DNA from: Eledone cirrhosa
Lineage: Eukaryota
DNA: 64,000 nucleotides
Direction: 5' to 3'
Assembly: GCA_964016885.1 (NCBI GenBank)
Contig: OZ024743.1
Location: forward strand, 239,754,001 to 239,818,000
This document shows, one piece after another, positions 1,848 to 62,946 of the stretch; position 1 is the stretch's first letter; the number at the start of each line of letters is the position of its first letter. A model generated the notes under the pieces. That model ran no database searches. It had not been told where the DNA came from and saw only the letters and a program-made list of their open reading frames with translations. The position numbers and the translations under genes are program-made.

Positions 1848-2125
1848 ATGTAAAGTTATATTTAAAAATTGTTGGGTTACAACTAGTAAATATTTATAAC
1901 TGATATAAAAGCACTCGACAAATATTTGGAGTATATTTACAATATTAAATAAATGGAAAACTATATTTATAAAACCATATTTATTTCATTATATATATTT
2001 CGGGGATATCATATTAACAATATGCTATGCCTTCATCAGACAAAATACAATATAAACAGTTTTATAGATAAATATATTCGACATACCGTAATAAACATCA
2101 ACTTCATTTGAAGAGGTTTAGTCTA
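1848..2125 (-). mobile_element. PLE pseudo-LTR fragment, family C, single arm
   Basis: Near-identical to 28418-28700 and similar to 62590-62830. Abuts (TA)n and carries an HHR. Confidence 0.75.
1982..2047 (-). ncRNA. type I hammerhead ribozyme, family C
   Basis: Minus strand reads tattttgt-CTGATGA-A-GGcatagcatatt..aatatgatatcCCC-GAAA-TATATA-TA-atgaaata. Helix III is palindromic. Confidence 0.8.
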
Positions 2126-2664
2126 GCAGTGAAAATACAGAGAGAAAGAAAGAGAGAAAGAAAAGAGGGAAAAAACGAAAGAAAGAAAGACAAAACGAAG
2201 AAAAGGAAGAAAAAGAAGAAAAGAAAAAGAAGAAATGCATGGAACAAAATAGAGAGATGGAAAAATAGATAAAGTGAAAAATAAATATAGTTTTCCATTT
2301 ATTTAATATTGTATATATATATATATATATATATATATATATATATATATATATATATATAAATACATACATATATACATACATATATACATATATAAAT
2401 ATATACATATATACATACATATATATAAAATCGAAACTTTGGCAAAGTCGAGCAAAGTCGACCTACAATAAGGAATGAGTAGCAAAGCACTCAATAAGGG
2501 TAGGTCCTTAGAGTAATAACATACGTTTAAATAGCTTGACAAATTGAAAATAGCAGTAGGCAAAACCCAAACACACAATACCAAAGTAACGAAAGAACTA
2601 ATAATATTATATATATATATATATATATATATATATATATATATATATATATATATATATATAT

Positions 2665-2815
2665 GTATAACGAAGGAATTGTGGTAAGGAATCAGATGCA
2701 CCATAACGCACCAGAGTACTCAATACTTAGGGTAGCAGAGTGAGTAATAGGAAATAGTCCAGAAATAGCCGTCGAAACGGCTTGAGCTCTGCTGTCGGCG
2801 TCATACTTTTTCATA
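2665..2815. mobile_element. PLE pLTR family A, short inverted copy in (TA)n
   Basis: Shares aacgaagga..gagtactcaatacttagggtag and gccgtcgaaacggcttgagctc with the other family A copies. Confidence 0.75.
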
Positions 2816-3020
2816 TATATATATATATATATATATAATATAAAACGAAAAATCAGTGATGCATCTGGACTCAATTTATTGTGTTACAATGGAAGCATCA
2901 TAGCTGCCATTAAACACACACACAAACACACACACACACATATATATATATATATATATATATATATATATATATATATATATATATATATATATATATA
3001 TATATATATATATATATATA

Positions 3021-3215
3021 TAGGAACCAGTAAGACCCCGACAGCTGAGCTCAAGCCGTTTCGACGGCTAATTCTGGACTGAATTAGCCGTCGAAACAGC
3101 TTGAGCTCAGCTGTCGGGGTCTTACTGGTTCCTATTACCCACCTCTACTACCTCAAGTATTGAGTACTTTGGTGCGTTATAGTCCACCTGGTTCCTTACC
3201 ACATTTCCTTCGTTA
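3021..3215. mobile_element. PLE pLTR family A palindrome plus tail
   Basis: Inverted arms ggaaccagtaagacccc...ggggtcttactggttcc, centred near 3076, plus an ~80 bp tail. Both ends lie in (TA)n. Confidence 0.8.
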
Positions 3216-3316
3216 TATATATATATATATATATATATATATATATATATATATATATATATATATATATATATATATATATATATATATATTTTTTTTT
3301 TTTTTTTTTTTTTTTT

Positions 3317-60200: not shown

Positions 60201-61459
60201 ATGTATACAATGTATAGACTGCATACATACAATGCTTACAACCATAATTACGCCCATACATACATATAAACATACATATAAACATACATATAAATATACA
60301 TACATACATACACGATAGACAGATAGGCAAAGAGACAAGCAAAGAGACGCTATATATATGTGTATGTATGTGTTTGTGTGTGTGTGTAGTATATATTTAA
60401 GAATAGGTGTATTCACGCAAGTAGCTGGGTTTTTAAAGCCGCGTGTTTGAATGTGTTTACGTGTCTGTGTATGCACTAAATATTTGAGATTATGTGTGTT
60501 CTTGCAGGTAGCTGTGTGTGTGTGTGTGTGTGTGTGTGTATGTCTGTGTGTGTATGTGTGTGTGTGTGTGTATGTGTGTATGTGTGTCTGTGTGTGTATG
60601 TGTCTGTCTGTGTGCGTCTGCATATGTGTGTGTCTGTGTATGTGTGTGTGTGTGCATGTATGTATGTGCGTGTGTGTGTGTATGTGTGTGGGTGCGTGTG
60701 TATGTGTGTGTGTGTGTGTGTATGTGTGTGTGTGTGTGTGTGTGTGTGTGTGTGTGTGTGTGTGTGTGTGTGTGTGTGTGTGTGTGTGTGTGTGTGTGTG
60801 TGTGTGTGTGTGTGTGTGTCGCACACGCTGTGAACGAAACTGCATGTGTATAAGTACTTCTAAGTATTTGCAACAAAACTATATTTCTATGTCCAAGCCT
60901 GTGCTACTGTGTCCATGTATTTGTGGCAATCTGTATTAGTATGTGCGTACATGTTGCTTTACACACACTTATACACATATATTTTTATGTATATAAATAC
61001 GTATAGTCCGTGTGTGTGTATGTGTGTGTATGTGTATGTACATATTTATACATGTACACACAAACACACGTAAACAAACAAACAAACACACACACACACA
61101 CACACACACAGACACGCACATATATATATATATGTATATACATATATATATATATATATATGTATATTTTATAAAAATAACTTCTATAATAAAACGAATA
61201 TACCTATTTACTACTAACGTATTGAGTGCCTTTTTTTATAGTGATCGTCTCCCGATTTACACCGGGATACGACATATATATATGTGTGTGTGTGTGTGTG
61301 TGTGTGTGTGTGTGTGTGTGTGTGTGTGTGTGTGTGTGTGTGTGTGTGTGTGTGTGTATACATATATATATATATATATATATATGTGTGTGTGTGTGTT
61401 AGTGTGTGTGTGTGTGCGTGTGTGCTTATGTTTGTGTATGTGTATGTACGGTTTCGTCG

Positions 61460-61730
61460 CTTCGTGGCTAGTGGGTTGGATTCACAAGCATGGTGTTAAA
61501 AGTTCGATTACCGGAGCGGGTGATGTGTGTATGTCCTTGAACAAGACACTTTTTTCCACGTTTCCTCCATTTCCATCAGATGTATCAGCCTTTGCCCTTT
61601 CGCTTGGACAACATATTATAATGCAGATGGGAGACTAGTGTGAAAAGCAACTGCTTGTCTTCCAACAAAGCCACAATGCCCAGCCATTTGCCTCGGGGGG
61701 TAAATTTCTAGATGCAAAACCCATAGATTT
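61460..61730 (+). mobile_element. old tRNA-SINE
   Basis: tggctagtgg A-box-like and gttcgattacc B-box-like motifs, then gtccttgaacaagacact. Related 3' part at 3850-4040. Confidence 0.55.
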
Positions 61731-62639
61731 TTTAGCTTGTATGAATACTATATATATATATATGTATATATACATATTTGTATACATGGATTATATACAT
61801 TAAATAGATATATATATATGCTTATATATATGTGTGTGTATATTCATACATACATACATACATACATATATATATATATATATATATATATATATATATA
61901 TATATATATATATATATATATCAGTGTGTGTGTGTGAGTGTGTGTATGTTTGTATACATAAATACATTCATATATACATACACACACACACCCATATATA
62001 CATACATACATACATATATATATATATATATATATATATATATATATATACTTGTACATTCACACATTCACACACACAGATACACATATATATATATATA
62101 TATATGTGTGTGTGTGTGTGTGTGTGTGTGTGTGTGTGTGTGTGTGAATAAAATGAACGTAAAAACAAAATTTGACAGGTAGATATTTAAGTAAATCGAT
62201 GCTATATCGTATATAGACAGACTGGCAGACACACGGACAGATAGAGATGTGAGTAGCTGGAGATGATGTTAAATATTAGTTATATATATTGATAAACACA
62301 AATGTGTATTTCTTTAGATGACTGCAAGAATATATATATATATATATATATATATTAATAAGAGAAATTCCAACTTTGTCTGATTTACTCGTTTTATTTA
62401 CAATCCTTTAAAATATATAATATGGTATTATAATGAAATAGTATGATAGAATATTAAATTCTAAGTGTTAATTGAACAAGTACTTTCATGCTTTCGCAAT
62501 CTTCATGTTCATAATATGTGGTGACAGTCGAGTTTGCAATTTTCAGTTGAAATAGATAGACTATCCAGACAGCTTCCAAAAATAATGGTCGCTTATAATA
62601 GGGTACGTCAAAATTATTTATAAAACTGTTTATATATTG

Positions 62640-62704
62640 TATTTTATCTGACGAAGGCATGCCATATTTTAATATGGTATCCCTGAAATATGTATAATGA
62701 AATA
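62640..62704 (+). ncRNA. hammerhead ribozyme, family C variant
   Basis: tattttat-CTGACGA-A-GGcATGCCATATT tt AATATGGTATcCCT-GAAA-tatgta-TA-atgaaata. Confidence 0.75.
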
Positions 62705-62946
62705 AATATGGTTTTATAAATATAGTTTCCATTTGTTTAATATCGTATATCTACTCCAAAAACTTGTCGAGTGCTTTATATCAGTTATAAAATATTTACT
62801 TGTTGTACCCCAACAATTTTAAATAAAACTTTTGCATATATATATATATATGAATTATATATATACATATACATATATATATATATATATATATATATAT
62901 ATATATATATATATATATATATATATATATATATATATATATATAT

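What the first reader, a model, noticed from the sequence alone, without database searches (positions are those of the whole stretch)
1911..62774. Shared YYGAGYRC motif downstream of the ribozyme in otherwise unrelated families
Seen: on the HHR-sense strand, a T(T/C)GAGT(A/G)C-like motif lies ~15-100 nt 3' of the cleavage site, near the (TA)n junction. It occurs in family C (1911, 62767), B (3361), A (2716, 3160), I (27503, 46774, 54647), G (21807, variant) and J (41606, variant). It also appears in orphan tails (16420, ~26519, ~25767, ~27864, ~54002). One fragment (2487) has it in the opposite orientation. Inference: a conserved cis signal for RT or endonuclease recognition, or for transcription, that I do not recognise as described.
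Basis: partly seen in the sequence, partly recalled or inferred. Interest (0 to 1): 0.7.

Follow-up and report, generated by a model that had tools for sequence, protein, structure and literature searches.

The report
Bulged hairpin pair sets Penelope tail
The short motif is one arm of a small predicted RNA hairpin that one clade of Penelope-like jumping genes carries twice, each copy lying 5-9 bases past one of the two points where inserted copies end; it likely tells the element's reverse transcriptase where to start copying, which would explain these elements' odd one-sided tail.

Summary
The motif is real but misread as a linear word. The repeats are ends of Hydra-clade Penelope-like elements (PLEs) inserted in (TA)n. 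YYGAGYRC is the 3' side of a predicted bulged hairpin: RCTC / upper stem / loop / upper stem / 2-nt bulge / GAGY / RC. Full-length elements carry it twice in the 5' UTR, between ribozyme and start codon. Each family has two insertion ends, lying mostly 5-9 nt upstream of one stem or the other, while the distance to the linear motif varies from 16 to 52 nt. Several families keep the stem by compensatory change and lose the 8-mer. Inverted insertions join one short and one long end in 109 of 112 classified cases. A non-coding tandem element and a 37%-identical element from another organism keep both hairpins. Best reading (0.65): a protein-bound RNA signal placing reverse-transcription start, so the PLE tail is the hairpin spacing. 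No binding or priming was shown. Reader errors: 21807 and 54002 are not the motif; 2487 is not reversed. This scan reached the same reading before on two other pieces of this genome; I did not find it in the searched literature.

The parts
1911..1932 (-). Family C first bulged hairpin (motif 1911-1918 is its 3' side)
1853..2124 (-). Family C long-ended pLTR copy: hammerhead core at 2039, cleavage site about 1990, long end at the (TA)n near 1853
28425..28888 (.). Family C inverted insertion: long-ended copy on minus (hairpin 28482-28503), short-ended copy on plus
62753..62774 (+). Family C subfamily first hairpin (same stem, different loop); hammerhead core at 62648
3361..3402 (-). Family B first hairpin, 7-bp upper stem and long loop; hammerhead core at 3512; short-ended partner copy 3593-3816 on plus
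3141..3167 (+). Family A first hairpin (one extra base in the 5' arm in this copy), in an inverted insertion 3023-3213 with a short end at 3023
2716..2741 (-). Family A first hairpin
5730..5755 (-). Family A first hairpin
38244..38269 (+). Family A first hairpin
45146..45171 (-). Family A first hairpin
62994..63019 (-). Family A first hairpin
16420..16444 (-). Family A-related old copy, intact hairpin
26519..26541 (-). Family A-related old copy, 3' arm and upper stem kept, 5' arm decayed
6557..6739 (-). C-terminal fragment of the family A Hydra-type ORF (endonuclease end)
27503..27523 (-). Family I first hairpin
46761..46781 (+). Family I first hairpin, 5' arm decayed
54647..54654 (+). Family I, 3' arm only in a rearranged copy
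41606..41653 (-).
2487..2514 (-). Family L first hairpin, sense to its own family's hammerhead-like fold
33111..33138 (+). Family L first hairpin, second copy
40761..40789 (+). L-related family hairpin, one lower-stem mismatch in this copy (intact in L281)
55037..55059 (+).
21706..21746 (+). Family G candidate hairpin: two lower-stem pairs changed on both sides, no 8-mer; starts 5 nt after the family's short end (13 copies); poorly folded in prediction
25767..25794 (-). Decayed hairpin of a family whose copies end in (CT)n rather than (TA)n
27864..27871 (+). Motif in a fragment cut by (TA)n 16 nt upstream; hairpin cannot be tested

Best explanation
The motif is the 3' side of a predicted bulged RNA hairpin that occurs twice in the 5' UTR of Hydra-clade Penelope-like elements, each copy beginning 5-9 nt past one of the element's two insertion ends, and it likely is the handle by which the element's protein binds its RNA and starts reverse transcription just upstream. 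Shown: two hairpins per full unit; two end classes per family, each at a TA step in the element, in register with the base of a stem; one short and one long end per inverted insertion. Inferred: the endonuclease nicks both strands of a (TA)n tract; one protein unit sits on each hairpin of a tandem or read-through transcript; each nicked 3' end anneals to the TA step 5' of its hairpin and primes cDNA; the hairpin lies 3' of the start and so is not copied, which is why the long end carries only the first hairpin and the short end none; the two cDNAs are joined head to head, giving the inverted insertion with a tail on one side whose length (70-100 nt here) is the hairpin spacing.
For: Register: modal ends lie 8 and 6 nt (A: 69 and 90 copies), 6 and 6 (B: 10, 13), 7 and 6-8 (C: 27, 48), 7 (I1 long: 26), 6 and 9 (I2: 5, 7), 5 (J: 17; G: 13), 8 (s68: 6) before the stem; also 6 for the J long end, 7 and 8 for family M, 7 for the 21807 family. 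End-to-motif distance, by adding the inner lengths, is 16-52 nt, so the register is to the folded stem. The second hairpin was predicted from family C (note) and then found in A and B, J and M. Pairing: 87 of 88 lower-stem positions are Watson-Crick in 22 hairpins, first pair A-U 10 times and G-C 11 times; upper stems differ in sequence and length but pair. In family I the second site has pair 3 flipped, no upper stem and no 8-mer, yet the same register; families M and G have C-G to U-A swaps. Short+long pairing: 109 of 112 classified inverted insertions, 20 of 21 in the unselected set (by hand, P about 1e-5 if at most half were mixed by chance). Family M is a 527-nt tandem unit with no long ORF that keeps ribozyme and both hairpins. 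Another organism's element at 37% protein identity has both hairpins before its start codon and an insertion ending 2-7 nt before the second (L256-L258). Read by eye in File S7 of PMC8557442: clear hairpins in 3 of 6 consensi (coral, two sea cucumber; one of them has two before the ATG), partial in 2, unclear in 1. In vitro, a Poseidon PLE starts reverse transcription at two internal sites that bound the tail and needs RNA 3' of them (PMC11167929).
Against: No binding, priming or expression data. Whole-region folds do not favour the hairpins: in family A the minimum-energy fold pairs the first 5' arm with the second 3' arm (z 0.06), in L256 z is 0.25; in short context 3 of 22 hairpins (A1, G, M2) have lower-stem probability below 0.1, and the antisense strand folds about as well, so energies do not tell RNA from single-stranded DNA. 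Several hairpins were picked by pairing, so the permutation test is partly circular. Off-register modes exist: I1 short ends at -12 and -19, I2 at -17, H at -12 (3 of 5), J at -9, B long ends at -10, s44 at 13 nt or more; they fall in A-rich or TA-like sequence where the junction is blurred, but that is my reading. Family K and four hammerhead families without (TA)n ends show no hairpin. In the Poseidon element the start sites lie in the ORF, in an AC-rich stem-loop, and I could not see its sequence.
Confidence: 0.65

Rival explanations
1. The hairpin forms in single-stranded or extruded DNA of the element and directs the GIY-YIG endonuclease to cut at the TA step 5-9 nt before it, so the ends are made by cutting an over-long intermediate.
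For: Every modal end lies at a TA step, the target dinucleotide. PMC8557442 ascribes the tail to endonuclease resolution of the intermediate; PMC11167929 cites a tail requirement for Penelope endonuclease recognition. Bacterial GIY-YIG Ssn nucleases recognise DNA hairpins by structure and sequence (PMC11893778). Both strands fold similarly.
Against: Upper stems tolerate G-T pairs on the sense strand (5 of 79), which become mismatches on the cDNA strand; purified Poseidon protein starts synthesis at the tail boundaries on RNA without such a cut. A double-stranded DNA site is unlikely because spacing between arms varies from 6 to 40 nt.
Confidence: 0.2
2. The hairpin is an RNA 3'-end signal: transcripts are cut or terminated 5-9 nt before it and are then copied from their 3' ends as in ordinary target-primed reverse transcription.
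For: A signal lying just 3' of a processing site fits the register equally well.
Against: It needs two RNA species to be paired one short with one long in 20 of 21 unselected insertions; the Poseidon protein ignores the RNA 3' end and starts internally.
Confidence: 0.08
3. The motif serves transcription or translation of the ORF (promoter element or 5' UTR signal) and lies near the ends only because the pLTR holds both.
For: Both hairpins are in the 5' UTR, the second some 20-60 nt before the start codon; pLTRs hold promoters in other PLEs.
Against: A non-coding tandem unit keeps both hairpins; a register of 5-9 nt to two separate ends is not expected of a promoter; the linear word is dispensable when pairing is kept.
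Confidence: 0.05
4. Chance or shared descent: short matches among related repeats with no function.
Against: Hairpin enrichment, one-sided (TA)n bias, covariation between otherwise non-aligning pLTRs, and presence in other phyla.
Confidence: 0.02

Closest known systems
Hydra clade of C-terminal EN+ Penelope-like elements (Craig et al. 2021, PMC8557442)
   Same: Single ORF with C-terminal GIY-YIG, RW(K/R), DKT and CxCx5C motifs, hammerhead in the pLTR, (TA)n insertion, tandem and inverted copies.
   Different: The paper describes no hairpin or start signal (0 hits for hairpin, stem-loop, initiation). Units here are 3.5-4.0 kb and tails 70-100 nt, against under 3 kb and 30-40 bp in the paper.
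Poseidon element PAc, two internal reverse-transcription starts (Frangieh et al. 2024, PMC11167929)
   Same: Two start sites downstream of the hammerhead that bound the tail; both target strands cut and extended; RNA 3' of the starts is required; dimer predicted.
   Different: Other clade; starts lie inside the ORF; no conserved element fixing the starts was identified; no pairing of one start per strand was seen in vitro.
3' stem-loop of stringent LINEs and their SINEs (as summarised in the abstract of PMC5135761)
   Same: A bulged stem-loop near the element end recognised by the element's reverse transcriptase and borrowed by non-autonomous partners.
   Different: The LINE stem-loop lies 5' of the start and is copied into every insertion, once per element; here the signal lies 3' of the start, is left out of the end it defines, and is doubled.
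Hepadnavirus epsilon signal (search listing abstracts)
   Same: Lower stem, bulge and upper stem that bind a reverse transcriptase and fix an internal start.
   Different: Epsilon templates protein-primed synthesis from its bulge; here the start is outside the hairpin and the primer is inferred to be nicked target DNA. No homology implied.
Non-LTR retrozymes (PMC7229834; bioRxiv 10.64898/2026.07.22.740005)
   Same: Family M is a short non-coding tandem repeat with a type I hammerhead.
   Different: The passages read name no cis signal shared with the helper PLE beyond the ribozyme; family M shares both hairpins.

Membership tests
Hydra-clade PLE | Single ORF, RT followed by C-terminal GIY-YIG endonuclease | tested here: met
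   Open 719-aa family A ORF and family C ORF with YRDD core and C-terminal VIY/IVY...YIG/YVG region; no Pfam hit, so assignment rests on motifs
Hydra-clade PLE | N-terminal RWK motif in place of GxKF/Y | tested here: met
   RWK in B and L256, RWR in A, C, I, J
Hydra-clade PLE | DKG modified to DKT | tested here: met
   DKT in A, B, C, I2, L256
Hydra-clade PLE | CxCx5C linker before the endonuclease | tested here: met
   Present in A, C, L256; B and I C-termini not held in full
Hydra-clade PLE | No CCHH motif inside GIY-YIG; CxxC and CxH near the C-terminus | tested here: met
   At most one cysteine between the two halves; CxxC and CxH present in A, C, L256
Hydra-clade PLE | Hammerhead in the pLTR | tested here: met
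   Canonical cores in B, C, I, G, H; variant cores in A, J, L; cleavage not tested; no Rfam hit at gathering score
Hydra-clade PLE | Insertion into (TA)n | tested here: met
Hydra-clade PLE | Generally under 3 kb | tested here: not met
   Tandem period 3.5 kb (A) and 4.0 kb (C) owing to long 3' UTRs; a descriptive, not diagnostic, trait
Hydra-clade PLE | Placement in the Hydra clade on an RT tree | not tested
   Published reference proteins were not available to the scripts
Hydra-clade PLE | ORF linked to the pLTR for families G, H, L, M and the 21807 and 25767 families | tested here: inconclusive
   No coding copy seen for these; M is a non-coding tandem unit
Stringent-LINE 3' stem-loop | Lies 5' of the start of reverse transcription and is copied into the insertion | tested here: not met
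   Each hairpin lies 3' of the end in register with it
Stringent-LINE 3' stem-loop | Bound by the element's reverse transcriptase and required for retrotransposition | not testable with these tools
   needs biochemistry
Known structured RNA family (Rfam 15) | Match at gathering score | tested here: not met
   0 matches in the window

The most novel reading that the evidence does not exclude
Hydra-clade PLEs use a two-station RNA template: two bulged hairpins load two reverse transcriptase units on one transcript, each primes from one strand of the cut (TA)n target a few bases 5' of its hairpin, and both halves of the insertion are made as first-strand cDNA. One RNA signal would then explain the tail, the inverted repeats and the mobilisation of animal retrozymes, and would be a portable start signal placed outside the copied sequence in the sister group of telomerase.
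Probability: 0.45. Interest if true: 0.82.

Novelty: new variant of a known kind. Interest (0 to 1): 0.68.

Why it matters
How PLEs choose an internal start for reverse transcription, and why their copies have a one-sided tail and inverted ends, are open questions for the retroelements closest to telomerase. A 20-50 nt element with a fixed register, natural compensatory variants and a strict short+long rule gives a direct mutational test, a marker for finding true element ends and non-autonomous partners, and possibly a start signal that is not itself copied into the insertion.

Tried and rejected
Coding constraint: both motifs lie before the start codon and persist in a non-coding unit. Pol III B-box likeness (recalled consensus): does not align with the 8-mer and does not account for the 5' arm; not tested by a call. 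Rfam: 0 matches. Pfam and PDB sequence searches of the ORFs: no hits. Protein searches of the genome returned mostly the query's own family, so family diversity came from flanks and the systematic sample. Descriptor hits s14, s51, s52, s74, s17 and window site 49685 gave no short ends in register and are treated as chance or untestable; s9 and the 40782 family gave long ends only. Window sites 41047/42206, 32357, 18583, 5726 have no hairpin. Family K has a hammerhead but no recognisable hairpin. Five of eight metagenome loci were short C-terminal fragments; one (L262) shows a degenerate hairpin, four show none. Sequencing-run search: no RNA holder listed, and the stretch given covered the ORF end rather than the hairpins. 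Supplements of PMC11167929: files 2 and 3 held no sequence, file 1 was not read and the GenBank file cannot be read here, so whether the Poseidon element has a similar element is open. Distances from cleavage site to motif for families J and L were not computed by a call.
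Full report
Observation. The window holds 28 matches against 7.2 +/- 2.5 in shuffles, but these include repeat copies, so I tested independence outside the window. In 60 systematically spaced 10-kb stretches there are 164 usable sites in 77 sequence clusters. The bare word is mostly background: 60 of 77 clusters have no partner arm and no bias to (TA)n. The other 17 have an upstream arm forming a bulged stem (control 6.1 +/- 2.5, max 14 of 500; per site 62 of 164 against 15.0 +/- 3.8), and 12 of these 17 have (TA)n within 100 nt downstream, none upstream. 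In the window 14 of 28 matches pass the same strict descriptor.

What the repeats are. [quoted passage not shown] Families A, B, I and J also run into such ORFs in full-length copies. The proteins are about 37-60% identical to each other and show RW(K/R), DKT, CxCx5C, no CCHH, a hammerhead in the pLTR and (TA)n insertion, the features given for the Hydra clade of Penelope-like elements in PMC8557442 (section 11 read whole). No tree was built. The host is an unnamed 3.0-Gb animal genome.

The structure. Each true site reads RCTC, upper stem, loop, upper stem, two-base bulge, GAGY, RC. In 22 hairpins from 14 families or subfamilies, 87 of 88 lower-stem positions are Watson-Crick; the first pair is A-U 10 times and G-C 11 times; the first upper pair is always pyrimidine-purine (C-G 12, U-A 10); loops and upper stems do not align between families and the span between the arms is 6-40 nt. 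The permutation test there (upper 61 of 66 against 39.8 +/- 2.8) is partly circular, since some hairpins were chosen by pairing. Natural variants lose the 8-mer but keep the stem: the second site of family I has pair 3 flipped and no upper stem; families M and G swap C-G for U-A; family H has a different bulge.

Two hairpins, two ends. Every well-sampled family has two classes of (TA)n junction, a short end before the first hairpin and a long end 70-100 nt further on. Full-length copies show a second hairpin just past the long end, before the start codon. I noted this in family C and wrote the prediction down before finding it in A and B, I in variant form, M and J. Mapping junctions over all held loci gives modal ends 8 and 6 nt before the stems in A (69 and 90 of 175 ends), 6 and 6 in B (10 and 13 of 59), 7 and 6-8 in C (27 and 48 of 94), 7 for the I1 long end (26 of 42), 6 and 9 in I2 (5 and 7 of 23), 5 in J (17 of 57) and G (13 of 32), 8 in s68 (6 of 9), with single copies at 6 (L) and 8 (s7). 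M ends 7 and 8 nt before its stems and the window's 21807 family 7 nt before its stem. Adding the inner lengths, the same ends are 16-52 nt from the 8-mer, so the register is to the base of the folded stem. Against this: I1 short ends peak at -12 and -19, I2 has a mode at -17, H at -12, J a second mode at -9, B long ends a second mode at -10, and s44 lies 13 nt or more away; these are in A-rich or TA-like sequence where my rule (start of the TA run) slides left. All modal ends fall at a TA step of the element, so the true start may lie up to a few bases further 3'.

One short and one long end per insertion. Of 156 inverted pairs examined, 44 had an unclassified end and were set aside; 109 of the other 112 join a short with a long end. 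In the unselected set (systematic sample plus window) it is 20 of 21, with 66 short and 35 long ends overall; by hand, P is about 1e-5 even if half were mixed by chance. A few window insertions are counted in both the selected and unselected sets.

Beyond coding copies and beyond this genome. Family M is a 527-nt tandem unit without a long ORF that keeps the ribozyme and both hairpins (L255, L305, L319), which argues against coding or translation roles. A metagenome element at 37% identity has both hairpins before its start codon, and an insertion of it ends 2-7 nt before the second (L256-L258; L257 and L258 share a flank and count once). In File S7 of PMC8557442, read by eye, 3 of 6 Hydra consensi show clear hairpins (coral Hydra-2_Amil, sea cucumber Hydra-2_Ajap, and two before the ATG of Hydra-1_Ajap), 2 show partial ones and 1 is unclear. 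It is not a feature of all hammerhead families: of 23 hammerhead-like clusters in the sample the descriptor found it in 4 (11 loci sense, 0 antisense), variants account for several more, and family K and the clusters without (TA)n ends show none.

Mechanism. Shown: the doubled element, its register to both ends, covariation, the short+long rule. From the literature: a purified Poseidon PLE cuts and extends both target strands, starts reverse transcription at two internal sites that bound the tail, needs RNA 3' of those sites and is predicted to dimerise (PMC11167929, parts 1-2 of 4 read). Inferred: the Hydra protein binds each hairpin, the nicked (TA)n ends anneal at the TA step 5' of each, two first-strand cDNAs are made and joined head to head. 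Confidence 0.65. The main rival (0.2) is endonuclease cutting guided by the same hairpin in single-stranded DNA, in line with the view in PMC8557442 that the endonuclease makes the tail (passages) and with hairpin-guided GIY-YIG Ssn nucleases (PMC11893778, passages). Folding predictions do not help the RNA model: z-scores are near zero, family A prefers a cross-pairing of the first 5' arm with the second 3' arm, and antisense folds are as stable.

21807 is not conserved in homologues and lacks a 5' arm; 54002 matches a decayed hammerhead stem III; 16420 and 26519 are family A relatives. The 2487 family has a hammerhead-like fold with a variant core upstream on the motif's own strand. 41606 is a true site.

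Novelty. The elements are known; the tail is known (PMC3846280, passages). I found no description of this hairpin in seven library searches or in passages of PMC8557442, PMC4209133, PMC7229834, PMC3846280 and PMC13282606 and part 1 of 5 of bioRxiv 10.64898/2026.07.22.740005. Subscription papers, Repbase reports, that preprint's supplements and the figures of PMC11167929 were not seen and could bear on this. The closest working analogy is the stem-loop of stringent LINEs (abstract of PMC5135761), which differs in being single and copied. This scan recorded the same reading on two other pieces of this genome; my reading was written down before that look-up, and those notes are not independent evidence.

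Noticed in passing
window 25640-25800 (minus); L074, L314: A hairpin-bearing family whose copies end in (CT)n instead of (TA)n, with CT-rich sequence before the stem: possibly a Hydra relative with another microsatellite target.
   Followed up: partly
L159 (family A), L280 (family J), L220 (family L): Hammerheads with non-canonical cores in abundant families: U in place of C3 with an enlarged position 7 (A), a change at position 4 (J), U3 with a very long stem II loop (L); family A has many intact young ORFs.
   Followed up: partly
L255, L305, L319: 527-nt non-coding tandem repeat with hammerhead and both hairpins, a retrozyme-like partner of Hydra elements.
   Followed up: partly
window 33850-34500: Large palindromic insertion of family K with two hammerheads and internal TA-rich segments, no hairpin found; clade unknown.
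   Followed up: partly
L159:130-358 (minus): The two hairpins have interchangeable arms; the predicted best fold pairs the first 5' arm with the second 3' arm, a possible switch that closes the tail into a loop.
   Followed up: no
G000, families A and C: Very recent expansions: dozens of near-identical intact ORFs and tandem arrays of period 3.5 and 4.0 kb; Hydra-type ORF pieces occur in about a third of the 60 sampled 10-kb stretches. Pfam has no model that hits these proteins.
   Followed up: no
L155, L153 (family B subfamily): A long low-complexity insertion between RT and the endonuclease linker, in frame.
   Followed up: no
window 42951-44621: Tandem array with a 27/54-nt period, about 1.7 kb.
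   Followed up: no
window 9109-10519 and 19990-20486: Decayed fragments that look like non-LTR retrotransposon C-termini (recalled resemblance only).
   Followed up: no
window 7819-7952, 26661-26833, 29016-29118, 33241-33376, 46290-46469, 50264-50411: A dispersed 100-170 nt repeat family without hammerhead, SINE-like by appearance.
   Followed up: no
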